Source of the DNA: a virus
Virus record (IMG/VR): IMGVR_UViG_3300027541_000218
Location: 9,824 to 73,823 of that record
DNA length: 64,000 bases
Reading direction: 5' to 3' (one strand)
The position numbers and the translations under genes were made by a program. The notes beneath the pieces are model-generated. The model searched no databases. It worked only from the letters and a program-made list of their open reading frames with translations, and was not told the origin of the DNA. How positions within the stretch are numbered: the first letter of the stretch is position 1; each line of letters opens with the position of its first letter. Shown one piece after another: positions 836 through 30,033 of this stretch.

Positions 836-1524
836 AACAAAGAATCATTGAGTTTGCTGCAGATGGTACAGCAATTCCAGATATAAAACCTTCTAAAAAC
901 TCTATACCCACATGGTATAAAGATATACCAACTTTTAACAAAAAGAATATAGTCTTTAATGATGGCATAGAGCCATTTAAAAATGTCAAATCATGTGTAC
1001 CATTTTTAGATGCAATGAACACTGGTTATACCGTTACACTATGGTCAGACGTTTATTGTAATCTTGGTGATACTGGTAATCATAATTTTAGATGGACAAT
1101 CGGACCAGATCCTATTTTATACCGTGGTAAAAATAAACATTTTTTAACTACAACAGATGAGTTTACTGATGATAGTTTTGCATGGCAGTCTCCATACTGC
1201 TTTAAATTACCAGATGGTTACAGTGCTATTGTAACTCACCCATTTAATAGGCATGACTTGCCCTTTGTTACACTTACAGGAATTGTAGATGCCGATGATA
1301 TTATGACTTCTGGTAATGTACCGTTTTTGCTTAAAAAGGACTTTAGTGGTATCATTGAAATAGGAACTCCTTTATTTCAGATTATTCCATTCAAAAGAGA
1401 AACTTGGAAAGCAGAAAGAAATGAAGAACTTCTCAAAATTGCTAATGATCAAAAAATTTCATCACAAAGAAAGTTTTTTAATTATTACAGAGATAAAATT
1501 TGGAAAAAGAAAGAATATCTATAG
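832..1524 (+). CDS. Hypothetical protein, degenerate dUTPase-like fold (paralog 1 of 3)
   Basis: KSCVPFLDAM, TGIVDAD, GTPLFQIIPFKRETW; clearly similar to 11722..12423. Confidence 0.55.
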   Translation: MKQRIIEFAADGTAIPDIKPSKNSIPTWYKDIPTFNKKNIVFNDGIEPFKNVKSCVPFLDAMNTGYTVTLWSDVYCNLGDTGNHNFRWTIGPDPILYRGKNKHFLTTTDEFTDDSFAWQSPYCFKLPDGYSAIVTHPFNRHDLPFVTLTGIVDADDIMTSGNVPFLLKKDFSGIIEIGTPLFQIIPFKRETWKAERNEELLKIANDQKISSQRKFFNYYRDKIWKKKEYL

Positions 1525-1532
1525 GAGATAAT

Positions 1533-2258
1533 ATGCCACACAGCGTAAAAGAAAGAATAACAATTGGATGGTGCGATAACGGAGTTGTAGAAGGACGTTT
1601 TGCAAGCGGTATTGTTAATACTGTCATTCAAGGAAAAGAATTTGGATTAAATATTATTAACACTATTCGTGTTAATGGTAATCAGATTGCACGTCAAAGA
1701 CAATCTTTATGGGATTTTTGGGCAGACCTATCTGATAGTGAATGGTTGTTATGGGTTGATTCTGATATTATCATTACCCCACAAGTTGTAAAAATGCTTT
1801 GGGAAGTTGCAGATAAAAAGACTAAGCCAGTTGTAACGGGGACATATTTTGTTTCTGCAGAAAACGAACAAACTCTTATGAGACCAATGCCAGCGTTGTA
1901 TTTAGAAACAGGTGATATTTATCAAACACAAGTTTTACATCCTTTGCCAGAAAATCAGGTTGTTCCAGTAGATGTGGCTGGGTTTGGACTTATGCTAATG
2001 CACCGCTCAATTATTGATCCAGTAAAGGCTGTTGCTGGTGATATTTCTGTGTTTGGAGAAAACCAACAGGCTGCTAATAAGTTTGTTAGTGAAGATGTTT
2101 CATTCTGTCGCAATCTTAAGAAAGCAGGATTCCAATTGTACGCACATACTGGTGCAACTGTTCAGCATATGAAAACATTTTCATTTGATAAAAACTATTA
2201 CAACATATATTGGGATGCTATGACTAGCGGAAAGATTAAGAAGCCCGAAAATGGCTGA
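1533..2258 (+). CDS. GT-A fold (GT2-like) glycosyltransferase
   Basis: WVDSD DxD motif, GFGLMLMHR, SEDVSFC; AGGAG SD supports the start at 1533. Confidence 0.8.
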   Translation: MPHSVKERITIGWCDNGVVEGRFASGIVNTVIQGKEFGLNIINTIRVNGNQIARQRQSLWDFWADLSDSEWLLWVDSDIIITPQVVKMLWEVADKKTKPVVTGTYFVSAENEQTLMRPMPALYLETGDIYQTQVLHPLPENQVVPVDVAGFGLMLMHRSIIDPVKAVAGDISVFGENQQAANKFVSEDVSFCRNLKKAGFQLYAHTGATVQHMKTFSFDKNYYNIYWDAMTSGKIKKPENG

Positions 2259-2508
2259 TCCAAATCAAACTCCACAAAGAGGTGATTGGGCTTGTCCATG
2301 CAATGGCTGTAAAAAGGCTGTTGCTTTTGAACGCAAACAACTTTTAGAACTACTTGAAGTAACCAAAGTTGAATATCAGATTTATCGTGGGTCAAGTTTT
2401 GATAAAGATGGCAATCTTCTTTGGATGAAAGATGATGTTGAAGCATATTCTGAAGGAATAGATGTTGCAATTAATTTAATAAAAAGCAGAATGGATAAAA
2501 AGAAATGA
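2251..2508 (+). CDS. Hypothetical protein with CxCxxC motif
   Basis: WACPCNGC; overlaps both neighbours. Confidence 0.6.
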   Translation: MADPNQTPQRGDWACPCNGCKKAVAFERKQLLELLEVTKVEYQIYRGSSFDKDGNLLWMKDDVEAYSEGIDVAINLIKSRMDKKK

Positions 2509-4034
2509 AACTATTGGCAATAGGTATGCAACATCACGATCATAATGCAGCATATTTTGATGGAGAAAAACTACACTATCATAAATTTGAAAGAACAAAA
2601 CAAATTAAACACTTTGAATATGAAAATAGATGGGAAATATTTAAAGATGTTCAAGAACTATGGAACTTTAAATTAGATGAAATAGATGATATTGTTATTG
2701 ATTATGACTATGCTACCTTTTTTCAAAACATAGACCCAGAGTTTGATTTAACAAGACCAGAAGTGTTATTTTATAGAATACCAAAAAAATACAATCCTTT
2801 TGAATCTTTTGGTATAAAAAATGCATGGCATATAAGCCATCATTATTCTCACGCCTTATCCACATGGATGCTAGAAGATAAGAATAATTCTCCAAGAGTT
2901 AGAGTTGTTATAGATGGCATGGGAAATAATAAAACATGTACAATTTTTGAAAATAATGTTGTTATAAAGAGTGTATATGAGGCTGACGCTGGATCAATTG
3001 GGTTTCATATGAACAATGCTGCTATGTGGCTTGGTGTAAACAAAGTGAGTTCGCTTGACAATGCTGGCAAAGTTATGGGCTTACAGTCATACGGAAGGGT
3101 TCATGACCAATACTTAAAAGAAATTAATGAGTTTGGAATTGATAATGCTAATGCCATATTTGACTTGACTAGATGGAATAACTACATGAAAGATCCATTG
3201 TTAACTAATCTTACCCCTCTTGACTGGATTAGAACTGTGCATGAAAGAGTTGGGGATCTTTTAGTAGAACTATTTAGTAAGTATATTAATAAAGAAGAAA
3301 GTGTTTCGTACTCTGGAGGAGTAGCACAAAATGTTGTATGGAATACAAAACTAATTCATAATTTTCCTAATATAATTATTCCACCACATTCTAGTGATGA
3401 AGGATGTAGTTTAGGTGCAATTGAATGGTTAAGAAAATATCACGATCTTCCTGAGTTTAAACTTGAAAACTTTCCATATTGTCAAAATGATTATGCTCCA
3501 AGCACAGAGCCTACAGATGAAACAATTAAGTATGCAGCCAAAATGTTGGCAGAAAATAAGATTGTAGGTTGGTATCAGGGACATGGGGAAGTTGGTCCTA
3601 GAGCGTTGGGTCATAGGTCTATATTAATGAATCCTGCTATACCGCTTGGAAAAGAAATTATTAATTCTGTTAAAAAACGAGAAAACTATAGACCATTTGG
3701 AGCATCTGTTTTATCTGAGCATGTACTAGATTATTTTAAATATGATATAAAAGATCCACACATGCTATTTACTAATGACTTTAAGGTTGATACGTTCCCA
3801 GCAATTACTCACGTTGATGGCACTTGTAGAACTCAAACGGTAGAAAATGATGGATCTGCATACAGAAAACTAATTGAAGAATTTTATAAGTTGACTGGAC
3901 ATGCATTAATTCTGAATACTAGTTTAAACATTAATGGAAAACCAATTGCAGGATATCCTGAGAATGCTATTGACTTGTTTGAGTTTTCTATGATAGACTG
4001 TATGATAATTGGAAATACAATATTAAATAAATAA
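2505..4034 (+). CDS. Carbamoyltransferase (NodU/CmcH/TobZ family)
   Basis: HHDHNAA, HHYSHA, VIDGMG, GKVMGL, SGGVAQN, GPRALGHRS, RPFGAS, HVDGTCRTQTV, LNTSLN. Confidence 0.93.
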   Translation: MKLLAIGMQHHDHNAAYFDGEKLHYHKFERTKQIKHFEYENRWEIFKDVQELWNFKLDEIDDIVIDYDYATFFQNIDPEFDLTRPEVLFYRIPKKYNPFESFGIKNAWHISHHYSHALSTWMLEDKNNSPRVRVVIDGMGNNKTCTIFENNVVIKSVYEADAGSIGFHMNNAAMWLGVNKVSSLDNAGKVMGLQSYGRVHDQYLKEINEFGIDNANAIFDLTRWNNYMKDPLLTNLTPLDWIRTVHERVGDLLVELFSKYINKEESVSYSGGVAQNVVWNTKLIHNFPNIIIPPHSSDEGCSLGAIEWLRKYHDLPEFKLENFPYCQNDYAPSTEPTDETIKYAAKMLAENKIVGWYQGHGEVGPRALGHRSILMNPAIPLGKEIINSVKKRENYRPFGASVLSEHVLDYFKYDIKDPHMLFTNDFKVDTFPAITHVDGTCRTQTVENDGSAYRKLIEEFYKLTGHALILNTSLNINGKPIAGYPENAIDLFEFSMIDCMIIGNTILNK

Positions 4035-4110
4035 TGGTCTGTAGTTCAGTTGGCAGAACAAGGCACTGTTAATGCCTGGGTCGTAGGTTCGAGTCCTACC
4101 AGACCAGCCA
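4035..4110 (+). tRNA. tRNA-Asn(GTT)
   Basis: Cloverleaf; acceptor TGGTCTG/CAGACCA; anticodon loop CTGTTAA; encoded CCA. Confidence 0.95.
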
Positions 4111-4111
4111 A

Positions 4112-4185
4112 GCGAATATTGCATAGTGGTAGTGCGTAACCTTGCCAAGGTTAATGTGCGAGTTCGATTCTCGCTATTCGCTCCA
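4112..4185 (+). tRNA. tRNA-Gly(GCC)
   Basis: Acceptor GCGAATA/TATTCGC; loop TTGCCAA; encoded CCA. Confidence 0.93.
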
Positions 4186-4186
4186 A

Positions 4187-4260
4187 GGTCCGTTAGTTCA
4201 GTTGGTTAGAACGCCACCCTGTCACGGTGGAGGTCGTGAGTTCAAGTCTCATACGGATCG
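4187..4260 (+). tRNA. tRNA-Asp(GTC)
   Basis: Acceptor GGTCCGT/ACGGATC; loop CTGTCAC; no encoded CCA. Confidence 0.93.
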
Positions 4261-4264
4261 CTAA

Positions 4265-4336
4265 GTCTCCATCGTCTAGTGGTTAGGACAACACCCTTTC
4301 ACGGTGTAAACGAGAGTTCAATTCTCTCTGGAGATA
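4265..4336 (+). tRNA. tRNA-Glu(TTC)
   Basis: Acceptor GTCTCCA/TGGAGAT; loop CTTTCAC; no encoded CCA. Confidence 0.92.
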
Positions 4337-4342
4337 CTCGAA

Positions 4343-4482
4343 ATAACATCTGAACAATGTTATGGAGATCGTTATTACTGAAACTGAGTTCGTGGGCGCA
4401 TCATACGAAGGTGTTCAGACCGAAGGAGATTGCTCTGCTACCCCACTAGGTAATAACAGCCAGCGGAGACTTTGTGGCTGGC
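4343..4482 (+). ncRNA. Candidate structured (pseudoknotted) ncRNA inside the tRNA array
   Basis: Several complementary segments and a 7-bp loop pseudoknot; not a cloverleaf. Confidence 0.65.
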
Positions 4483-4486
4483 ATTT

Positions 4487-4558
4487 GCCTCCTTAACTCA
4501 GGGGTAGAGTACCCGCCTTGTAAGCGGGTTGTCGTAGGTTCAAATCCTACAGGAGGCT
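4487..4558 (+). tRNA. tRNA-Thr(TGT)
   Basis: Acceptor GCCTCCT/AGGAGGC; loop CTTGTAA; no encoded CCA. Confidence 0.93.
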
Positions 4559-4559
4559 C

Positions 4560-5483
4560 GTGGCACACTTATCAATTAAAGAATTGTCTAAGCGCAATAA
4601 CTTTCAGACCTTTGTCTATAGAATAGGCATTGGTCAAGGGTTTTATCTTGTTAATACAGATATACTTGTTAAGTTAAATAAATCTATTTTAGAAAATATT
4701 TTATCAGTTGACGATTTAAATAATTATAAAGTTGGTAGATCAATACAATTACCAACTGAAACTAATGATTTAGTTCCATTAAGTATGCTTTATAAAGACT
4801 CAGATTTTTCTACTAGAACACAAAATACAACAGCAAAACAAGATGAACAGATATTTAATATTGCATGTTTAATGGATAGTATTAAAAATGAAAGTGGCTT
4901 AGAATATGTGCCAATTAAAATTATAGATAATATATATAATGTAAGGTCAATAAAATCTTTAGAAGATAAATCCAAGGCTGATTTTTGTTTCATAGACTTA
5001 GATGGTAAAGAAGTAGGTTTTGTATCACATAAAGATGGTATAAGCCCTAGAGACTTCCAACAGTGGTCTGGTACATCAAAAAGATTTCAAGAAGAAATAT
5101 TTTTACATCCTGAGACTCAAGATTTTATTTCTGTTTTGAAAGAAAATTTTAATGACAGTCTTCCACCAGCGTCAACAGTAGCAAGAAAAATATCAGATCA
5201 AAGACTAAAACATCTTGCCGTATTTGGTAATGATTTTGGTCAAGTGCTTGGTAGAAACAATGTTGAGGCTGTAATGCAAGGAGATTTACAACTTATATTT
5301 AAGAATGAATACTGTGAATTGGTTGGATCTCACTATACTATTAAGAATGGAGAGATACCTGTTTACGGATATGAGCCAGTGCTTATGGCAGTACACAAAA
5401 GAGATAGAAGCGATCATTGGATTAAAAACTGTAGGCTTACTATAAATCCATTAGGTACTAGAACTATTAAGTTGTTCATATAG
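4560..5483 (+). CDS. Putative PD-(D/E)XK (restriction-endonuclease-like) nuclease
   Basis: KADF...FVSHK followed by FQQWSG; GTG start abuts the tRNA. Confidence 0.5.
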   Translation: MAHLSIKELSKRNNFQTFVYRIGIGQGFYLVNTDILVKLNKSILENILSVDDLNNYKVGRSIQLPTETNDLVPLSMLYKDSDFSTRTQNTTAKQDEQIFNIACLMDSIKNESGLEYVPIKIIDNIYNVRSIKSLEDKSKADFCFIDLDGKEVGFVSHKDGISPRDFQQWSGTSKRFQEEIFLHPETQDFISVLKENFNDSLPPASTVARKISDQRLKHLAVFGNDFGQVLGRNNVEAVMQGDLQLIFKNEYCELVGSHYTIKNGEIPVYGYEPVLMAVHKRDRSDHWIKNCRLTINPLGTRTIKLFI

Positions 5484-5514
5484 TTGATGCTATAATTATA
5501 TAAAAGGGGTAATA

Positions 5515-6468
5515 TTGGCTAAAATTGTATTCTTAGGTAACTTTAGTGTTGACTACAGTAGTGAAACGCATCATGCTAAATCATTAGAGGCTCTTGGGCA
5601 TACCGTCGTTAAAATGCAGGAGCAAAAGGCTAAGAGCAATGTTATTCTTGCTGAAGCATTACAAAGCGATTTATTTGTATGGGTTCATACTCATGGCTGG
5701 AAGACTCCAGGATCACCTTCTATGGATGTAGTTTTAACTGAATTAAAGAAGGCTGGCATACCAACAATGACCTATCATCTTGATCTTTGGTTTGGACTAA
5801 AACGACAAAAAGATTTAGAAAATGATAATTTTTATAGAACAATTGGTCACTTCTTTACTGTAGATAAACTTATGGCTGATTGGTTTAATGATAATACATC
5901 AGTAAAAGGACACTACCTTCCTGCTGGGGTATATGGAGAAGAGTGTTATTTAGATAGTTCTTATGGAAATGGTTACGAGCATGACATTATATTTGTTGGA
6001 AGTAAGGGTTATCACCCAGAATATCCATATCGCCCAATGTTAATTGACTATCTAAGACAAACCTATGGCAAAAGATTTTTACATGTTGGTGGAGATGGCG
6101 ATACTGGAACTGTGCGTGGAGAAAAGTTAAATAGGATTTATGCTAAAAGTAAGATTGCAATTGGAGATAGTTTAAATTTAAATTTTGACTATCCGTATTA
6201 TACAAGTGATAGACTATTTGAAAGTACTGGTCGTGGTGGGTTCACAATCTACCCTGATATTAAAGGACTAAGAGATTTATTTGTAGATAAAGAAGAAATT
6301 GTTTTTTATGAACATGGTAACTTTAAAGATCTAAAAAACAAAATAGATTATTATCTTGAGCATGATGAAGAACGTGAAAAGATAAGGGTCGCTGGACATG
6401 AAAGAACTAAAAAAGAACATACATATGTTCATAGATGGGCAACAATAATAAGGGAGTTAAACCTATGA
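5515..6468 (+). CDS. GT-B glycosyltransferase (CgeB/Glyco_trans_1_2-like)
   Basis: DIIFVGS, SDRLFESTGRGGF, EREKIRVAGHERTKKEHTY; TGCTATAAT promoter upstream. Confidence 0.85.
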   Translation: MAKIVFLGNFSVDYSSETHHAKSLEALGHTVVKMQEQKAKSNVILAEALQSDLFVWVHTHGWKTPGSPSMDVVLTELKKAGIPTMTYHLDLWFGLKRQKDLENDNFYRTIGHFFTVDKLMADWFNDNTSVKGHYLPAGVYGEECYLDSSYGNGYEHDIIFVGSKGYHPEYPYRPMLIDYLRQTYGKRFLHVGGDGDTGTVRGEKLNRIYAKSKIAIGDSLNLNFDYPYYTSDRLFESTGRGGFTIYPDIKGLRDLFVDKEEIVFYEHGNFKDLKNKIDYYLEHDEEREKIRVAGHERTKKEHTYVHRWATIIRELNL

Positions 6469-7178
6469 CAGAGATGGTTAAAGCCGTTATAAACGGAGAG
6501 TTTGAAATAACATTACCAAAGCATAGGGCAGATAGACCAGACTGGTATCAACCACAAGGTTGGGAGAAACCAAGATTAAAGTCTATGCATGAAAATATTG
6601 GTGAAAACGATGTTGTTTACTATGTTGGTGCTGAAGAAGGAGAGATGCCAGCATTATGTCAGATGTGGGGTGCTGAGGTTGTTTTATTTGAGCCTAACCC
6701 AAAAGTTTGGTCACACTTTCCATTACTTTGGAGTGCTAATAATTTAAAAATGCCACTTGCCTGTATTCCTGGATTTGCATCAGATAAAGATAATAAGTTA
6801 GCAAGAATTTATTACAGCGAGTTTCCACCAGAGGCTGATTCTCCTATTGAGGCAGCGCATGGATTTAAAGAACTTCAGTATGAAGCAGATAAATATGGAC
6901 AAACTAAAATTGATACTCTTGTTTATGAAAAAGGATTAAAGCCACCAACAGTAATCTCTCTTGATGTTGAGGGAAGTGAATGGCGTGTTCTTGGTGGTGC
7001 AGAAAAAACAATGAGAGAATTTAGACCAAAAATTTGGTTATCTGGTCATCCAGAATTTATGATGATGTATTGGAAAGAATATCTATATGATTTAAGACAG
7101 TTTATTAAAGGCATTGGATATAAAGAATATCTTTTAGATTATCAACATGAGGTTCATTTTTATTATGAACCAGCCTAA
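6465..7178 (+). CDS. FkbM-family methyltransferase
   Basis: VGAEEG, FEPNP, SLDVEGSEWRVLGGA. Confidence 0.85.
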   Translation: MTEMVKAVINGEFEITLPKHRADRPDWYQPQGWEKPRLKSMHENIGENDVVYYVGAEEGEMPALCQMWGAEVVLFEPNPKVWSHFPLLWSANNLKMPLACIPGFASDKDNKLARIYYSEFPPEADSPIEAAHGFKELQYEADKYGQTKIDTLVYEKGLKPPTVISLDVEGSEWRVLGGAEKTMREFRPKIWLSGHPEFMMMYWKEYLYDLRQFIKGIGYKEYLLDYQHEVHFYYEPA

Positions 7179-8025
7179 AGCATATATATTTTCTATTGAT
7201 CCTTTAGATGCTGCTGATGGTAAATGGGATTACGGTTTGCTTAAAGAAACTTTTGAACGTCATCACATTGATCAATTAGTTGTAAAAAATATACCAAAAG
7301 ATGAAAGAGCATTTGTAGTAATTCCTGGTCAAGGTAATGCGGGTAAAGAAGAACTAATTAATAAGGAACTTAGTAATCTTGATAGAGTAGTATTATTTAT
7401 TACTGGAGACGAGTCTGCTACATTTAATGTAGATCTTATTAGTCATCCTAATATTAAGATATGGGTTCAATACCCCCACAAAAAACATGAAAAATATCAA
7501 AAGTTTTTTATTGGTGTTCCACAGCATTTAAAGGCTGAAAAGCCAGATTATCCTAGCAAAGATTATGACGTTTATTTTGGTGGACAGGTTACACATCAAC
7601 GTAGAAAGCAACTAGGAGAGGTCATGCAAACCCTTCCAAATGCCCTTTATAAGCCCACAAAAGGCTTTGCACAGGGTGATACACCAAAGGAATACTATAA
7701 GACGCTCTCAAAGGCAAAGATAGCCCCTGCGCCAGCGGGTGCTGTAGTAGTTGATTCTTTTAGATTTTTTGAGGCTATAGAAATGTTATGTATGCCTGTT
7801 GGAGATGGAAGAAACTCTCAAGGAGAAGTTGATAGTTATTTTAAATATATTTATCCTAAAGATCTACCTTTTCCAATAGTAGATAATTGGAATGAATTAA
7901 ATGAACTTCTACCAGATCTTATTTCTAACTATCCTAATAATATGCATCAAGTAGTTTGTTGGTGGTTAAAATATAAAAGAGATTTTGGTTTTAAGGTTAT
8001 GAGGCAACTTCATGAACAAGAGTGA
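7165..8025 (+). CDS. Glycosyltransferase, exostosin/GT47-like
   Basis: YDVYFGGQ, SKAKIAPAPAG, DSFRFFEAIEMLCMPV. Confidence 0.7.
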   Translation: MNQPKAYIFSIDPLDAADGKWDYGLLKETFERHHIDQLVVKNIPKDERAFVVIPGQGNAGKEELINKELSNLDRVVLFITGDESATFNVDLISHPNIKIWVQYPHKKHEKYQKFFIGVPQHLKAEKPDYPSKDYDVYFGGQVTHQRRKQLGEVMQTLPNALYKPTKGFAQGDTPKEYYKTLSKAKIAPAPAGAVVVDSFRFFEAIEMLCMPVGDGRNSQGEVDSYFKYIYPKDLPFPIVDNWNELNELLPDLISNYPNNMHQVVCWWLKYKRDFGFKVMRQLHEQE

Positions 8026-8743
8026 TATTACGGCTATACTTGTTACCTCTGTATTGCCAAGTCATCCAGATACCCGCATACTTGATGAAACACTTGCTTC
8101 TATTCGTACCCATTTGCCAGAGAATGAGGTTATCCTTCAAATTGATGGGCTTAGAGAAGAAAGAGCAAGCCGCAAAGAAGATTACAATGAGTTTAAAAAT
8201 CGTGTACTTTGGAAATGCATACATGAATGGAAAAATGTTTTACCAGTAATATTTGACGAACATTGTCATCAGACTACAATGATGAAAAGAACTATTGATA
8301 TGGTGAACACTTCAGCACTTTTATATGTTGAGGGAGATGCACCGCTTACATCAGATCAGCCAATTGATTGGCAGAAATGTTTAGACATGATGGAATACAA
8401 TAGTGCCAATACTATTAGGTTTCATTTTGAAGCATCCATTCCTAAAGAACACGAACATTTAATGTTTGGTATTGAAAACGGTTTTATGAAAACAAATCAA
8501 TGGAGCCAAAGACCACATCTTAGTTTAGCAAAATATTATAGAGAAATAGTTCTACCCTTCTCTGATGAAAAAACTTTTATTGAAGATAGATTTCATGGAA
8601 AAGTTCAAGACGACCCATGGTGGAAACATAAACTATGGATCTATCATCCTGAAGGTAACATAAAAAGATCTTATCATTTAGACGGACGTGAGGGAACAAG
8701 AAAATTTACTGCAGATGATGAAGTCTGGGGATATAAAGAGTGA
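8012..8743 (+). CDS. Putative GT-A glycosyltransferase
   Basis: TSVLPSHPDTRIL, LYVEGD, WSQRPHL, HLDGR; lies in the GT operon. Confidence 0.55.
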   Translation: MNKSDITAILVTSVLPSHPDTRILDETLASIRTHLPENEVILQIDGLREERASRKEDYNEFKNRVLWKCIHEWKNVLPVIFDEHCHQTTMMKRTIDMVNTSALLYVEGDAPLTSDQPIDWQKCLDMMEYNSANTIRFHFEASIPKEHEHLMFGIENGFMKTNQWSQRPHLSLAKYYREIVLPFSDEKTFIEDRFHGKVQDDPWWKHKLWIYHPEGNIKRSYHLDGREGTRKFTADDEVWGYKE

Positions 8744-9771
8744 ACCTAGGAATAATTGTAAGATCAGATAATACTGGTCTTGGGAATCAAACAAGAGAAT
8801 TAACTTATATGCTAAATCCTACAAAGGTTATGCTTATCAACTCTCATTCTTTTAATAAAAATAAACAGCACCCAGAGTGGTATGATAAATATAATATTTA
8901 TCCTGTAAGGGGTTTTCCAAAGGCTGGAGATATATCTGCATTTCTAAAAGGGCTTGATGTTGTTTTAACCTGTGAAACATTTTATAATAATCAGTTTGTA
9001 GATATTGCTAGAAAGATGGGCGTTAAAACAGTATTGCAATATAATTATGAGTTTTTAGATATGGTTGTTAATCCTAGAATATCTGTACCAGATATTTTGC
9101 TTGGTCCTAGCATGTGGTATTTTGATCATATGCAGGAGTTATTTTCAGATAAAGCAAAAGTTTTGCATTTACCGCCACCAATTGATCACACAAAATTTAA
9201 TGAGGTAAGAAAAGAAAACATGTCTAAAGATCATTTTAGAGTACTACATGTAGGTGGAAAGGCTGCATCTGAAGATAGAAACGGCACTCATTCAGTGCTG
9301 GAAATGTTAAGATACTCAAAAACAGATTACGAACTTGTTATCAAAACCCAAACACATATTAATATTTCTACCAAAGATTCTAGGATTAAGGTGGATCATA
9401 GTGATGAACCAGTTAGAGAAAATCTTTATAAAGGATTTGATTTAGTAATTATGCCAAGAAGATATGCAGGCTTATGCCTGCCAATGAATGAGGCATTAAT
9501 GAGTGGTTTGCCAGTGTTTATGACTAATATATCTCCTAATAACTATGTTTTACCAAAGGAGTGGCTTGCTAATTCTGAAAAAACTGGAACATTAAAAACT
9601 AGAATGATGCTTGATGTGTATTCTGCAGATCCAAAACATTTGGGCAAGATGGTTGATAAATTTATGAATCAAAGAAGTAGATACAAAGATAAAGAACATG
9701 CTTTTGAAATTGCTATGAATAACTTTTCTACTGAAAAACTTAAAGATAAATATATTGATATATTAAAATAA
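8740..9771 (+). CDS. GT-B (GT4-like) glycosyltransferase
   Basis: TGLGNQT; PRRYAGLCLPMNEALMSGLPV. Confidence 0.85.
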   Translation: MNLGIIVRSDNTGLGNQTRELTYMLNPTKVMLINSHSFNKNKQHPEWYDKYNIYPVRGFPKAGDISAFLKGLDVVLTCETFYNNQFVDIARKMGVKTVLQYNYEFLDMVVNPRISVPDILLGPSMWYFDHMQELFSDKAKVLHLPPPIDHTKFNEVRKENMSKDHFRVLHVGGKAASEDRNGTHSVLEMLRYSKTDYELVIKTQTHINISTKDSRIKVDHSDEPVRENLYKGFDLVIMPRRYAGLCLPMNEALMSGLPVFMTNISPNNYVLPKEWLANSEKTGTLKTRMMLDVYSADPKHLGKMVDKFMNQRSRYKDKEHAFEIAMNNFSTEKLKDKYIDILK

Positions 9772-9799
9772 GACGGGTCCATTGCTAGACCCGCCTTAT
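9769..9799. terminator. Hairpin between convergent transcription units
   Basis: AAGACGGGTC-loop-GACCCGCCTT at the strand switch. Confidence 0.65.
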
Positions 9800-9813
9800 A
9801 GTTACTAACTAAA

Positions 9814-10065
9814 TTACTTAGCAGTCTTCTTCTTTGGCTTTGCAGCCTTAAGAGCCTCTTCAACTACAGAAGCCTTTGGCAAACGACCAAATGCTGCATC
9901 GTTAGGATTAATTGCACGTGCTGCTACTGGAATGAGTGCACCAACAAGTGCTGCCCATAGATCCTTTGGATCTGTTACTCCTGCAACGTACAATGCTGCT
10001 ACTGCACCAACAATCGAACGACCATATGATGCAAGCATTGCTTTATGTTTCTTACTTAGTTCCAT
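9814..10065 (-). CDS. Holin-like small membrane protein
   Basis: Two hydrophobic segments, RAINPND..FG, basic tail; AGGAGG SD. Confidence 0.6.
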   Translation of the reverse strand: MELSKKHKAMLASYGRSIVGAVAALYVAGVTDPKDLWAALVGALIPVAARAINPNDAAFGRLPKASVVEEALKAAKPKKKTAK

Positions 10066-10074
10066 GTTTTCCTC

Positions 10075-10233
10075 CTAGGATAGAACCTTTATTAGTATAG
10101 CATAGCCAGCCCACAAGCCAATAATTCCTGCCACCCCTGCAAAAACTGGCGGTGCTGGAACTGGCAACTTGAATGCAGCAAATACTAAACCGCATCCAAA
10201 ACCTGTTAATGTTGATAATATAATATCTTTCAT
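10075..10233 (-). CDS. XapX/DUF1427-like membrane microprotein (not in ORF track)
   Basis: MKDIILSTLTGFGCGLVFAAFKLPVPAPPVFAGVAGIIGLWAGYAILIKVLS*. Confidence 0.75.
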   Translation of the reverse strand: MKDIILSTLTGFGCGLVFAAFKLPVPAPPVFAGVAGIIGLWAGYAILIKVLS

Positions 10234-10439
10234 CCCTTTACCCCCTTACCACTGTCTGGATTTTCTGGATGATCCAATGGAGTTGGTGCGGTACATAGCG
10301 CACCACAGTTATCGCACTGAATATCCAAATGATACATAGCAACCATATAAGTTTCTGGATCAAATGATATTAATGCCCTGAATAAATTTTGTCCACAATT
10401 TGGGCAATCGCAAGTTGGAATACCCCTAGCGTCTATCAT
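10230..10439 (-). CDS. Zinc-ribbon protein
   Basis: CPNCG and CDNCG. Confidence 0.7.
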   Translation of the reverse strand: MIDARGIPTCDCPNCGQNLFRALISFDPETYMVAMYHLDIQCDNCGALCTAPTPLDHPENPDSGKGVKG

Positions 10440-10788
10440 CTATGTTCTCTGGTAAAAGTGTAAGTAACTTATCTGATAGTTCTTTTTTATCAATACTATT
10501 TAACTCTTCAATAACTTCTTTTATAGTTTCTTGAGACCGCTCAATATAATCAAAAGCCCAATCACGAGAATCAGATAAAAATTTAATAAAGTTTTCTTTA
10601 TGAATATCTTGATCTTCTGGAGATGATGCAAAAGACTGGGTAGTTTCAAGTGCTGTTGACATTGAACTATAGGCAACAAGTAGTTGTGCAAATCCATCAC
10701 TTACAGTTTTAAGTTTTTTTACTACAGCAACATATGCAATCATAAAAGATAAAGAAATGATGCTAAGTACAGCCAGTGCGATTTCCAT
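10426..10788 (-). CDS. Membrane-anchored hypothetical protein
   Basis: N-terminal TM segment; FIKFLSDSRDWAFDYIE. Confidence 0.65.
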   Translation of the reverse strand: MEIALAVLSIISLSFMIAYVAVVKKLKTVSDGFAQLLVAYSSMSTALETTQSFASSPEDQDIHKENFIKFLSDSRDWAFDYIERSQETIKEVIEELNSIDKKELSDKLLTLLPENIDDRR

Positions 10789-10789
10789 A

Positions 10790-11722
10790 TTAATTCCTTT
10801 GTCCAAATACTATTGTATCACCAGAGTGGTTATACATTTTTTTAAAGTCTATACCTGTCATTTTTTCATAAAGTTTAATATGCCTATATTTTCCCACACC
10901 AAAAATACCCTCTTCAATTCCACACAACACCTTGCGCTGTTTATCTTTAGATATGTCTTCTAGTTCTTTCCAAGATACCTTACGTATATTACGATCTTTC
11001 CATATCTTGCTATACCCCTCACGAGTATAAAAATGATAAAGAATTGTTATGCAAGGAGAATAAATATCCCATCCTCGTGTCCATGCTCGTACTGCAAAAC
11101 ATAACTCTTCTCCAAAAAATGATATCTCTGGATCATACGGAACTTCTTGTACAATGTTACCTGTGGTAAAAATAAATCCACCTAATACTGTAGTAGATAA
11201 CTCAGGAACATTTTTATTAGTTAGTTCTAATCTTTCAGCAGTCCACTCATTACGCTTAGTAAGTTTTGGTATTTGTTTTGTTGGGTAGGGCAATTGAGTT
11301 TTATTATTTTTTATAATATTAATTGTTTTATTTGTCTCTACATAAAATGGTGGAGGAAAATAAGAAAGAATTATCTTATCATTGTTTGATAATAGTTTTG
11401 CTAACTCATGTTGTTTAATGCATAAGAGATCCCAATGTTTTTCAAACATTGTGTGTGAATCAATTTGTAAAAAATAATCTTGCCCATCATACGATTCCAT
11501 AGCCTTTGCTCTTGCAAAACCAGCACCTCTAGCATACTTAGGATGCATCTTTTGTAGAGAAAGTCTAGGTACCCAAGATAAATCTGGTTCAAACTTTTCA
11601 AACTCTTGAAGAACTACAGAGAAGTATAGTTCTTCTGGATGTGCGGCATTATCAATAGCAGATTTAATAGTTCTAACTAATTCTGGATCTCTATAACTTG
11701 CTATTGATATAAATATGCTCAC
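10790..11722 (-). CDS. GT60-like GlcNAc transferase (Skp1 GlcNAc-T family)
   Basis: IFISIASYRDPEL, LQIDSH, VPYDP, GEE, RAWTRGWDIY. Confidence 0.85.
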   Translation of the reverse strand: MSIFISIASYRDPELVRTIKSAIDNAAHPEELYFSVVLQEFEKFEPDLSWVPRLSLQKMHPKYARGAGFARAKAMESYDGQDYFLQIDSHTMFEKHWDLLCIKQHELAKLLSNNDKIILSYFPPPFYVETNKTINIIKNNKTQLPYPTKQIPKLTKRNEWTAERLELTNKNVPELSTTVLGGFIFTTGNIVQEVPYDPEISFFGEELCFAVRAWTRGWDIYSPCITILYHFYTREGYSKIWKDRNIRKVSWKELEDISKDKQRKVLCGIEEGIFGVGKYRHIKLYEKMTGIDFKKMYNHSGDTIVFGQRN

Positions 11723-28975: not shown

Positions 28976-29258
28976 AATCAAAATACCCCTTAAGTTCTTT
29001 TAACATTTTATCTACTGCTTTTTTACTAACATTACAGTTAGAGCAAAATCCAGAATCATTGTAGATAGAAAGTTTTACTCCACATCCACCAAGACACTTT
29101 CTATCTTTACCTTTTCGTTTTTGTCTGCGTGTTAATTGATATCTTTCAGCAATCTTTTCTTTTGTAGCCTCATCTCTACAAAATTCGCTGCAATATATCT
29201 GATAACTTACTTTTGGTTCAAAGTATGTATTACAGTCAAAACGACTACAAAGTTTCAC
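28962..29258 (-). CDS. Cys-rich zinc-finger protein
   Basis: Four Cys pairs. Confidence 0.7.
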   Translation of the reverse strand: MKLCSRFDCNTYFEPKVSYQIYCSEFCRDEATKEKIAERYQLTRRQKRKGKDRKCLGGCGVKLSIYNDSGFCSNCNVSKKAVDKMLKELKGYFDYEQD

Positions 29259-30033
29259 TCAATTCCTCCAGAGAAGCAATCTTTATTACTCCTGGTTCGG
29301 CTTTTGCACAGTCAGCCTGTAGCGGACAGTGCTTACAGATCTTAGCATTTGATCTATAATTTTTCATAGGAAGTTGCTTATCTTCCCAAGCCTTACGAAC
29401 TTGTCGCATCCATTCAAACGCATTGTCAATCCATTGAATGTAATTATCATTAATGTTTACTGGTATTGCTAACAACTCATGATTATTTTTATTTTCATAA
29501 ACAATAACACCCTTAGCCTTCTTAAGAACTTTCATATATATTAATGTTTGAATAATATGACCAGTCTTAGCCTTACCAGTTTTCTTACGATATTCAAATA
29601 CTTGTTCGTTGGTAGTCTTTACTTCAACTACAACCTCATCATCTTTCCAGTTAACTAGCCCATCAACCTTGCCATAGATTGGTGGATCTTCATGCTTTAG
29701 TTCAAACTCATAGTCAATAAGAATTCCTGAGTTTTTAAATGCTGTTCCCAAAATTCTTTCATGCGAGAGCGTACCATTATCCATATTTGCAACATCATAT
29801 GGACTAGCGTTATCTTCAAAGTTAGCCCCCTCAAATGCTAGATACCAGTATCTTGGACATTCTCCTTCACCATAGGCAATCTTTGAAGGGCTGAACATCT
29901 TCTTTTTTTGAAACTTAGTACCACGTTCTGATACATATCCGCTTTCTACAGTTTTGATAAAGTCTGCTGCACCAAATTCATCATTTTCTTCTGTAGGCTT
30001 AAGCATTATCTGCTTTAGTAAATTTTTAGTCAT
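29245..30033 (-). CDS. Cas4-like PD-(D/E)XK exonuclease
   Basis: ECPRY, GKVDG, VEVKT, Q...Y, CKHCPLQADC. Confidence 0.85.
   Translation of the reverse strand: MTKNLLKQIMLKPTEENDEFGAADFIKTVESGYVSERGTKFQKKKMFSPSKIAYGEGECPRYWYLAFEGANFEDNASPYDVANMDNGTLSHERILGTAFKNSGILIDYEFELKHEDPPIYGKVDGLVNWKDDEVVVEVKTTNEQVFEYRKKTGKAKTGHIIQTLIYMKVLKKAKGVIVYENKNNHELLAIPVNINDNYIQWIDNAFEWMRQVRKAWEDKQLPMKNYRSNAKICKHCPLQADCAKAEPGVIKIASLEELSETL

What the first reader, a model, noticed from the sequence alone, without database searches (positions are those of the whole stretch)
4343..4482. Pseudoknotted ~140-nt non-tRNA element embedded in the tRNA array
Seen: the other tRNAs are 1-4 nt apart, but Glu and Thr are separated by 150 nt rich in pairings. 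Hairpin ATAACAT(4343-49)/ATGTTAT(4357-63) has a loop, CTGAACA, fully complementary to TGTTCAG(4412-18), giving a pseudoknot. A long-range helix GTTATTAC(4371-78)/GTAATAAC(4450-57) encloses hairpins TTCGTG/TACGAA and GGAG/CTCT. GTGGG(4392-96)/CCCAC(4442-46) is an alternative pairing, and GCCAGC/GCTGGC forms a 3' hairpin. GGAGAY recurs at 4364, 4425 and 4465. Known: phage tRNA arrays host structured RNAs (GOLLD, ROOL, manA, theta ribozymes, YrlA). Inference: tRNA processing would release this as a discrete RNA. I do not recognise its family.
Basis: partly seen in the sequence, partly recalled or inferred. Interest (0 to 1): 0.75.

Follow-up and report, generated by a model that had tools for sequence, protein, structure and literature searches.

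The report
New folded RNA in phage tRNA arrays
The 150-base gap between two tRNA genes of this river phage is a real gene for a small, intricately folded RNA that matches no catalogued RNA family; it recurs as a movable cassette in the tRNA arrays of related phages, and its job is unknown.

Summary
Window 4337-4486 (+) sits flush between tRNA-Glu and tRNA-Thr.

- **No known family.** It matches no Rfam 15 family even at E<=10, and nothing in GenBank phages.
- **Comparative evidence.** I found about 25 distinct homologues in viral and metagenome contigs. All lie between two same-strand tRNAs, in 12 different neighbour combinations.
- **Covariation.** On a model-based alignment, 99.3% of cells pair and 15 base pairs change on both sides; slid controls give 0-4 such pairs and 31-40% pairing. 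Five helices are supported: H1, P2, P3, H4 and H6. A sixth, H0, is swapped whole in one member.
- **Invariant parts.** A 43-nt core is identical in every member, although carrier phages share proteins at only 28-65% identity. Two hairpin loops (CUGAAC and GUUCAG) are complementary and invariant apart from one wobble-compatible change.
- **Presence/absence.** A phage 90-94% identical in the flanks lacks exactly these 151 nt.
The TTCGTG/TACGAA hairpin and the "GGAGAY repeat" are not conserved. The fold of the window sequence alone is no more stable than shuffles.
- **Not shown.** Release by RNase P and tRNA 3'-end processing is inferred. Function is unknown.

The scan's earlier notes hold this family only on this genome. 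They do list other, unrelated structured RNAs in phage tRNA arrays.

The parts
4265..4336 (+). Upstream tRNA-Glu(UUC), ending at discriminator A4336.
   Evidence: ARAGORN, Rfam tRNA 64.6 bits, acceptor-stem check.
4337..4486 (+). The whole RNA element (150 nt). It starts at the first base after the discriminator and ends one base before tRNA-Thr.
   Evidence: Model R1 scores 171.4 bits, E 9e-39, full length. L002 lacks exactly 4336-4486.
4337..4339 (+). H0 5' strand (CUC). It pairs with GAG at 4365-4367.
   Evidence: Invariant in 24 of 25 distinct rows. L067 has GCU/AGC at the same place, with all three pairs swapped.
4343..4363 (+). H1 hairpin: stem 4343-4349 / 4357-4363, loop L1 (CUGAACA) at 4350-4356.
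   Evidence: Five of 8 model pairs change on both sides and 100% of cells are paired. The loop is invariant except C to U in L018.
4365..4367 (+).
4371..4379 (+). P2 5' strand of the long-range helix (9 bp here, 8 bp in other members).
   Evidence: Four pairs change on both sides and 99.4% of cells are paired. Strand variants are listed.
4392..4396 (+). P3 5' strand (GUGGG).
   Evidence: Pair 61/111 is A-U in 12 sequences and G-C in 12. Pair 62/110 is G-C in 19 and A-U in 4. The rival partners at 4407-4410 and 4434-4438 vary on one side only.
4398..4440 (+). Invariant 43-nt core. Only two positions vary widely, and they pair with each other. It contains H4 and a possible 3-bp helix, 4398-4400 / 4431-4433.
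   Evidence: Alignments A4 and A5. The 3-bp helix is predicted in 4 of 5 single-sequence folds (not L023), and one U-G change is compatible with it.
4410..4421 (+). H4 hairpin: stem 4410-4412 / 4419-4421, loop L4 (GUUCAG) at 4413-4418, complementary to L1.
   Evidence: The closing pair takes the forms U-A, C-G, G-C and U-G. The L1-L4 duplex has 6 bp and -7.0 kcal/mol. The loop never varies, even in a scan that left it free.
4442..4446 (+). P3 3' strand (CCCAC).
4449..4457 (+). P2 3' strand.
4459..4482 (+). H6 3' hairpin: stem 4459-4464 / 4477-4482. The interior varies in length and is 23 nt longer in the 'long' members.
   Evidence: Three pairs change on both sides and 100% of cells are paired. 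Length variants are shown.
4483..4486 (+). 3' tail (AUUU), with U at -1 of the next tRNA.
   Evidence: The -1 base is U in 22 of 24 members.
4487..4558 (+). Downstream tRNA-Thr(UGU).

Best explanation
This is a gene for a small, stable, compactly folded non-coding RNA of a family not yet catalogued. The family is carried as a cassette in the tRNA arrays of a clade of river and lake tailed phages.

Shown:
- Selection acts on an RNA fold of the tRNA strand. The fold is a 5' hairpin (H0/H1), a long-range stalk (P2 then P3) enclosing an invariant 43-nt core with a small hairpin (H4), and a 3' hairpin of variable length (H6).
- The loops of H1 and H4 are complementary over 6 nt and essentially invariant.
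- The element is present or absent as a precise unit between closely related phages, and it sits between many different tRNA pairs.

Inferred:
- It is transcribed with the tRNAs.
- It is cut out by tRNA 3'-end processing (an RNase Z-type cut after the discriminator, or RNase E in the A-rich loop) and by RNase P at the 5' end of the next tRNA.
- The two loops pair and lock the 5' hairpin onto the core.
- The invariant junctions form a binding pocket through which the free RNA acts in trans during infection. The most likely action is to bind or sequester a conserved host component, plausibly one tied to tRNA or translation.
For: - Covariation: 99.3% of cells paired, 15 pairs with changes on both sides, 0 of 500 shuffles as high, slid controls 0-4 pairs. 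G-U pairs fix the strand.
- H0 is swapped whole in L067.
- Independent MFE folds of five diverged members recover H0, H1, P2 and H6 in all five, and H4 in MFE or MEA.
- About 25 distinct members exist, all flush between same-strand tRNAs, in 12 neighbour combinations.
- The element starts at discriminator+1 with C in all members, and the base before the next tRNA is U in 22 of 24.
- L002 is 93.5% and 90.2% identical in the two flanks and lacks exactly 4336-4486. R1 finds nothing in L002-L006.
- The core is 100% identical while carrier phages share proteins at 28-65% identity.
- There is no internal terminator and no above-chance promoter. The array abuts the upstream stop codon and the downstream start codon.
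- Known precedent: T4 rnaC and rnaD are annotated as small stable RNAs in its tRNA cluster.
Against: - No direct evidence of a discrete RNA. Contigs from RNA libraries cover the element at 100% identity, but at the same low depth as the flanking coding DNA, so DNA carry-over cannot be excluded.
- The loop-loop pairing has no compensatory change, only one wobble-compatible change.
- No partner is known. No protein family co-occurs with the element in the loci, and the 71%-complete genome has no Ro60 or RtcB.
- The family is narrow, so some covariation events are shared by descent.
Confidence: 0.6

Rival explanations
1. The element is a self-cleaving ribozyme of a new class. It cuts at its own 5' edge, or elsewhere, and so trims the 3' trailer of the upstream tRNA. 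This is the role proposed for HDV-like theta ribozymes in gut phages.
For: - It begins exactly one base after the discriminator in 23 of 24 members.
- Helices vary while junctions and loops are invariant, and it has a tertiary loop-loop contact. This pattern is typical of ribozymes.
- Theta ribozymes set a precedent for ribozymes directly 3' of phage tRNAs (PMC10879173).
Against: - No match to any Rfam ribozyme model at E<=10.
- The order of the supported helices does not fit the nested HDV double pseudoknot. A P2-like pairing of the A-rich loop with the 3' tail does not hold across members, because the tails vary without partner changes.
- The hammerhead core is not met: CUGAACA has C where the essential G8 stands.
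- tRNA-tRNA junctions without the element in the same arrays are evidently processed anyway.
Confidence: 0.12
Comparable cases are phi29 prohead RNA and, on a larger scale, the ROOL and GOLLD RNA cages, whose covariation-predicted 'tertiary' kissing loops proved to be intermolecular.
For: - L1 and L4 are complementary to each other but not to themselves, and are invariant.
- H1 length plus P2 length is constant: 7+9 bp in 8 members and 8+8 bp in 13 members. This suggests a fixed end-to-end distance rather than a side-by-side reach.
- ROOL and GOLLD are phage RNAs near tRNA islands that multimerise through kissing loops (PMC12286853).
Against: - No structural or biophysical data exist.
- The length compensation may rest on only one or two evolutionary events.
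- No Rfam match to pRNA, ROOL or GOLLD.
- An intramolecular contact is not excluded by the geometry.
Confidence: 0.12
3. The element acts in cis within the precursor. It would serve as a processing, stability or attenuation signal for the neighbouring tRNAs or the downstream ORF, and has no role as a free RNA.
For: - It is always inside a polycistronic array.
- H0 abuts the acceptor stem of the upstream tRNA.
- The GURGG segment has three mutually exclusive partners, which could form a switch.
Against: - Neighbours differ in 12 ways and the position within the array is not fixed, so no particular tRNA or ORF is served.
- H6 is not followed by a U-run (tails include GCUU, ACAC and ACAU), and the terminator scan finds none.
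- Close relatives do without it.
Confidence: 0.08
4. It has no RNA function. It would be a decayed pair of tRNA genes, a small protein gene (the 44-codon ORF at 4362-4496), or a DNA-level mobile element or recombination scar.
For: - 150 nt is about two tRNA lengths.
- An ATG-started 44-codon ORF exists in the window.
- The element shows presence/absence polymorphism.
Against: - No tRNA signal inside it at E<=10 and none from ARAGORN.
- The ATG is absent in 13 of 24 members, and the reading frames and their ends differ.
- Compensatory changes, including G-U pairs, show selection on RNA pairing.
- There is no second copy in the genome, and no inverted or direct terminal repeats are visible at the junctions.
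Confidence: 0.03

Closest known systems
Phage T4 species 1 and species 2 RNAs (rnaC, rnaD)
   Same: Both are small RNAs (139 and 119 nt) encoded on the tRNA strand inside a phage tRNA cluster. T4 annotates them as small stable RNAs and names no function. By textbook knowledge they are matured with the tRNAs.
   Different: There is no homology: model R1 gives no hit on them with filters off, and blastn of the element finds nothing in GenBank phages. The T4 RNAs end in tRNA-like features, a T-arm-like GGUUCGAAUCC and a CCA, visible. This element has none.
HDV-like theta ribozymes of gut phages (PMC10879173)
   Same: Both lie directly 3' of phage tRNA genes and could define the tRNA 3' end.
   Different: The helix order supported by covariation is not the nested HDV fold, and no Rfam HDV-type match appears at E<=10. 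The size also differs: about 150-175 nt against a minimal ribozyme.
ROOL and GOLLD RNAs (PMC12286853)
   Same: Both are phage-encoded, often beside tRNA genes (GOLLD env-38 follows a tRNA-Met). Both have ornate folds with conserved kissing loops, and their function is unknown.
   Different: ROOL and GOLLD are several-fold larger (GOLLD often above 800 nt) and have their own Rfam models, which do not match here. Multimerisation is shown for them and untested here.
phi29-type prohead RNA (pRNA)
   Same: Both are RNAs of 120-174 nt with two loops complementary to each other.
   Different: There is no match to the Rfam pRNA model. pRNA is encoded at the genome end of small protein-primed podoviruses, not in a tRNA array. 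This phage has an ordinary large terminase and portal.
Bacterial and phage Y RNAs (YrlA type)
   Same: Both are small structured RNAs that can sit near tRNA genes in phages.
   Different: Here the 5' and 3' ends do not pair into a Ro-binding stem, there is no tRNA-like module, there is no Rfam match, and the genome record has no TROVE/Ro60 gene.

Membership tests
Any Rfam 15 family (4227 models) | Score at or above the family's gathering threshold | tested here: not met
   Only the five tRNAs pass in the window. Within 4337-4486 nothing better than E = 9.6 appears. Six related loci also give only tRNAs.
tRNA / tRNA pseudogene | Cloverleaf detectable by ARAGORN or RF00005 | tested here: not met
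   No call inside 4337-4486. The supported helices do not form a cloverleaf.
HDV-like / theta ribozyme | Location immediately 3' of a tRNA | tested here: met
   The element starts at discriminator+1 in 23 of 24 members.
HDV-like / theta ribozyme | Nested double pseudoknot, with P1 from +1 and a P2 strand between P1 and P3 that pairs with the 3' end | tested here: not met
   The order is H0-H1-H1'-H0'-P2. The 3-4 nt between H0 and H1 do not covary with the variable 3' tails. No Rfam HDV-type hit.
Hammerhead ribozyme | Conserved core CUGANGA ... GAAA around three stems | tested here: not met
   The loop reads CUGAACA, with C at the G8 position. No Rfam hit.
T4 rnaC / rnaD | Homology in sequence or structure | tested here: not met
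   R1 with filters off gives no hit at L087 2909-3172. blastn gives no match.
T4 rnaC / rnaD | Encoded within a phage tRNA cluster on the tRNA strand | tested here: met
phi29 pRNA | Two mutually complementary loops in one RNA | tested here: met
   L1 (CUGAAC) and L4 (GUUCAG) form 6 bp.
phi29 pRNA | Match to the pRNA model, and ring assembly on the portal | tested here: not met
   No Rfam match. Ring assembly cannot be tested with these tools.
ROOL / GOLLD | Match to their Rfam models, and size above about 500 nt | tested here: not met
   No match. The element is 149-173 nt.
Y RNA (YrlA) | Terminal stem with a Ro site, a tRNA-like domain, and a Ro60 (TROVE) gene in the genome | tested here: not met
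   The ends do not pair. There is no TROVE hit in G000, which is 71% complete, and no Rfam hit.
tmRNA-like message RNA | Conserved tag reading frame ending in a fixed stop, or an ARAGORN tmRNA call | tested here: not met
   ARAGORN finds none. Frames and their ends differ among members, and the last codons lie in covarying P3.

The most novel reading that the evidence does not exclude
The RNA is the first member of a new functional class. In either case it spreads among phages as a cassette the size of a tRNA gene.
Probability: 0.2. Interest if true: 0.85.

Novelty: new variant of a known kind. Interest (0 to 1): 0.6.

Why it matters
Phage tRNA arrays are turning out to hold orphan structured RNAs such as T4 rnaC/rnaD, GOLLD, ROOL and theta ribozymes, and the function of almost all of them is unknown.

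This family is small enough (150 nt) for direct biochemistry and structure work. It has a clearly defined fold, an unusually rigid 43-nt core and a testable loop-loop contact. Natural isogenic-like pairs with and without it (the window against L002) also exist.

Three questions therefore become directly testable:
- whether tRNA-processing enzymes are used by phages as a general way to make small RNAs;
- whether such RNAs act as decoys, catalysts or self-assembling particles;
- how cassettes move within tRNA arrays.

Tried and rejected
- **Rfam** at gathering threshold and at E<=10: nothing.
- **blastn** of the element and of the array against 50,697 GenBank phages: only the tRNAs match.
- **Second copy in the genome**: none by blastn-short or by model R1.
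- **Single-sequence thermodynamics**: not significant.
- **Small ORF**: rejected.
- **tmRNA-like tag**: rejected.
- **T4 rnaC/rnaD homology**: rejected.
- **HDV-like, hammerhead and terminator readings**: rejected on topology or sequence.
- **Linked protein partner**: ORF clustering over 33 loci found no family specific to carriers. There is no TROVE or RtcB in the genome. PHROG/Pfam annotation of 30 window ORFs gave no RNA-handling protein.
- **Metatranscriptomes**: six riverine RNA libraries hold the sequence. The four laid give contigs that bridge element and tRNAs. Depth is 3-5, the same as over the neighbouring coding DNA, so neither transcription nor RNA ends can be read from them.
- **Search for loop variants or distant members**: a scan leaving L4 free found no new sequence. 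A scan requiring only the two loops gave 26 new loci, none of which matched R1.
- **Metagenome false positives**: about 30 metagenome hits to the 24-nt core pattern lie in a gut-bacterial protein gene and are coincidental.
- **The 2023 catalogue of 10,006 IMG/VR candidate RNAs** (PMC10690425): this could not be checked for the family because its supplements are not held.

Full report
**What is in the window.** ARAGORN and Rfam agree on five same-strand tRNAs: Asn 4035, Gly 4112, Asp 4187, Glu 4265-4336 and Thr 4487. The first four are 1-4 nt apart. Between Glu and Thr lie 150 nt (4337-4486), with 46% G+C against 36% for the genome. The array is butted against the stop codon of a carbamoyltransferase gene (4034) and the start of a 307-codon ORF (4560). 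The record is an IMG/VR tailed-phage fragment of 73.8 kb, estimated 71% complete. It encodes a portal, a protease, a large terminase, a helicase, a primase and a UvsX-like recombinase.

The window sequence alone gives only weak support:
- The minimum free energy is no better than that of dinucleotide shuffles (z = -0.54 on +, -0.72 on -).
- A perfect 7-mer complement of the first hairpin loop elsewhere in the element has a chance of about 0.009.
- No Rfam 15 family matches, even at E<=10, and GenBank phages hold nothing similar outside the tRNAs.

**Relatives.** The closest relative, L002, has a carbamoyltransferase 97% identical in protein. Its flanks are 93.5% and 90.2% identical in DNA. It has tRNA-Glu and tRNA-Thr 2 nt apart. 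The difference is a clean replacement of 'GC' by window 4336-4486. Four relatives at 60% protein identity also have Glu and Thr adjacent, and model R1 finds nothing in any of these five loci.

Pattern scans then recovered homologues of the element itself:
- from IMG/VR;
- from metagenome contigs;
- from one contig binned into a Methylococcus MAG.

After removing duplicates and about 30 coincidental hits in a gut-bacterial protein gene, there are 24 distinct full-length members plus L088 and three truncated ones. Members are 149-173 nt long; five carry a further 57-nt hairpin module.

All lie between two same-strand tRNAs. Upstream neighbours are Met, Asn, Glu(UUC), Glu(CUC), Asp, Gly or Ile. 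Downstream neighbours are Thr, Leu(UAA), Leu(UAG), Gly(UCC) or Trp. That makes 12 combinations. Near-identical elements (window, L007, L069, L088) have different neighbours.

**Structure.** I built a covariance model from a 22-sequence alignment with a hand-drawn structure (R1) and re-aligned all matches to it (A5). Pair counts on A5:
- 99.3% of 1008 cells form a standard pair.
- 15 pairs change on both sides, in 100 cells.
- No shuffle of 500 reaches these values.
- Structures slid by 1-3 columns give 31-40% pairing and 0-4 such pairs.

Double-sided changes support five helices:

| Helix | Window coordinates | Pairs changed on both sides |
|---|---|---|
| H1 | 4343-49 / 4357-63 | 5 |
| P2 | 4371-79 / 4449-57 | 4 |
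| P3 | 4392-96 / 4442-46 | 2 (one is 12 A-U against 12 G-C) |
| H4 | 4410-12 / 4419-21 | 1, in four pair types |
| H6 | 4459-64 / 4477-82 | 3 |

A 3-bp helix H0 (4337-39 / 4365-67) is invariant except in L067. There all three pairs are exchanged (GCU/AGC), which that sequence's own minimum-energy fold also shows. Independent folds of five diverged members recover H0, H1, P2 and H6 in all five. H4 appears in their MFE or MEA structures, and the small core helix in four of the five. The many G-U pairs would be C-A mismatches on the opposite strand, so the RNA is read on the tRNA strand.

- The TTCGTG/TACGAA hairpin is not conserved. Its outer pairs are broken in 16 and 22 of 24 sequences.
- The GURGG segment can also pair with UACG (4407-10) or with CUCUGC (4434-38), but with one-sided variation only. 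A conformational switch is possible but not shown.
- 'GGAGAY x3' is not a conserved motif. Copy 1 is the H0 strand, copy 3 lies in a variable loop, and only copy 2 belongs to the invariant core.

**The invariant parts.** Positions 4398-4440 are identical in all members, apart from the covarying H4 closing pair and rare single-base changes. Meanwhile carrier phages share proteins with the window phage at only 28-65% identity.

Loop L1 (CUGAACA) and loop L4 (GUUCAG) are complementary over 6 nt (-7.0 kcal/mol). They are also invariant. The single change, C to U in L018, keeps a wobble pair. A scan that left L4 free found no variant. The pseudoknot is therefore strongly suggested by complementarity plus conservation, but not proven by covariation. 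Whether the contact forms within one molecule or between molecules cannot be decided here. One oddity bears on this: H1 is 7 bp where P2 is 9 bp (8 members) and 8 bp where P2 is 8 bp (13 members). This may reflect few evolutionary events.

**What it is not.**
- Not a tRNA or tRNA remnant.
- Not a protein gene: the ATG of the 44-codon ORF is missing in 13 of 24 members, and frames differ.
- Not a tmRNA-like tag RNA.
- Not T4 rnaC or rnaD.
- Not HDV-like or hammerhead by helix order or core sequence.
- Not a terminator.
- Not a repeat in its own genome.

No linked protein partner was found either. ORF clustering over 33 loci gave no protein family specific to carriers, and the genome record has no Ro60 or RtcB.

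**How it most likely works.** The element begins with C immediately after the discriminator in every member (CUC in 23, C+GCU in L067). The base before the downstream tRNA is U in 22 of 24, which is the RNase P preference (enzyme preference from general knowledge). There is no room for a promoter or terminator of its own.

I infer the following sequence of events:
- The element is co-transcribed with the tRNAs.
- tRNA 3'-end processing and RNase P release it.
- It folds into a compact RNA, clamped by the loop-loop contact.
- The rigid junction core acts in trans, most plausibly by binding a conserved host factor.

RNA-library contigs from four riverine metatranscriptomes contain the element at 100% identity, joined to both tRNAs. 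Their depth equals that over the neighbouring genes, so they neither prove transcription nor give RNA ends.

None of these is excluded. Each has a simple bench test, listed under next steps.

**Comparison and novelty.** In kind, it joins the orphan structured RNAs of phage tRNA clusters:
- T4 rnaC and rnaD;
- GOLLD and ROOL (PMC12286853);
- theta ribozymes (PMC10879173).

It fails every membership test for those families. A sequence look-up in the scan's earlier notes found this family only on this genome. A word search showed several unrelated RNA families noted in other phage tRNA arrays. The general phenomenon is therefore known, while this family appears to be undescribed. The one caveat is the 2023 IMG/VR catalogue of unnamed candidates, which I could not check.

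Noticed in passing
L040:1120-1176 (+); also L048, L060, L065, L069, L075, L081: A 57-nt module sits between the element and tRNA-Leu(UAA) in seven loci and is 98-100% identical among them. It is closed by a 10-bp stem (GUAUUCAGAG / CUCUGAAUAC). It looks like a second, separate small-RNA cassette. Rfam gives no match on L040 or L069.
   Followed up: partly
L009:922-1046 (-) and L009:443-604 (-): The same tRNA array holds two more non-tRNA inserts. One is 125 nt, closed by a 12-bp terminal stem, between Thr and Gly. The other is 162 nt, between Leu(UAG) and Gln. Neither has an Rfam match, and neither has a homologue in the other loci fetched.
   Followed up: partly
window 4560-5483 (+): A 307-codon ORF (phrog_13937, unknown function, no Pfam hit) starts right after tRNA-Thr. 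It is present in L002 (91% aa). L007 has about 420 unrelated bases in its place, although the DNA beyond it is 95.7% identical. This is another cassette-like polymorphism at the edge of the array, reminiscent of the segB homing endonuclease inside the T4 tRNA cluster.
   Followed up: partly
window 4343-4363 with 4371-4379 / 4449-4457, and homologues: Stem lengths compensate across the family. H1 has 7 bp where P2 has 9 bp, and 8 bp where P2 has 8 bp, so the sum is constant. The cause is unexplained; it may be geometric coupling or shared ancestry.
   Followed up: partly
L058:250-399 (-): This member has the 5' half of the L007 type and the 3' half of the window type, which creates a C-A mismatch in P2. 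It is either a natural recombinant within the element or a chimeric assembly.
   Followed up: no
window 4108-4111, 4183-4186, 4261-4264, 4337-4339: The bases after the discriminators read CCA-A (Asn), CCA-A (Gly), CUA-A (Asp) and CUC (Glu, which is the first helix strand of the element). Every tRNA in the array is followed by C, but only two encode a full CCA.
   Followed up: no
L034-L037, L039, L042-L044 and about 20 other metagenome loci: The 24-nt core pattern also occurs in a conserved gut-bacterial protein-coding gene, apparently a membrane protein read on the opposite strand. The flanks are unrelated to the element, so the match is coincidental.
   Followed up: yes
window 1500-11722: The tRNA array is embedded in a block of sugar-modifying genes: several glycosyltransferases, a Nol-like carbamoyltransferase and a methyltransferase. 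A Cas4-like exonuclease lies at 29245-30033.
   Followed up: no
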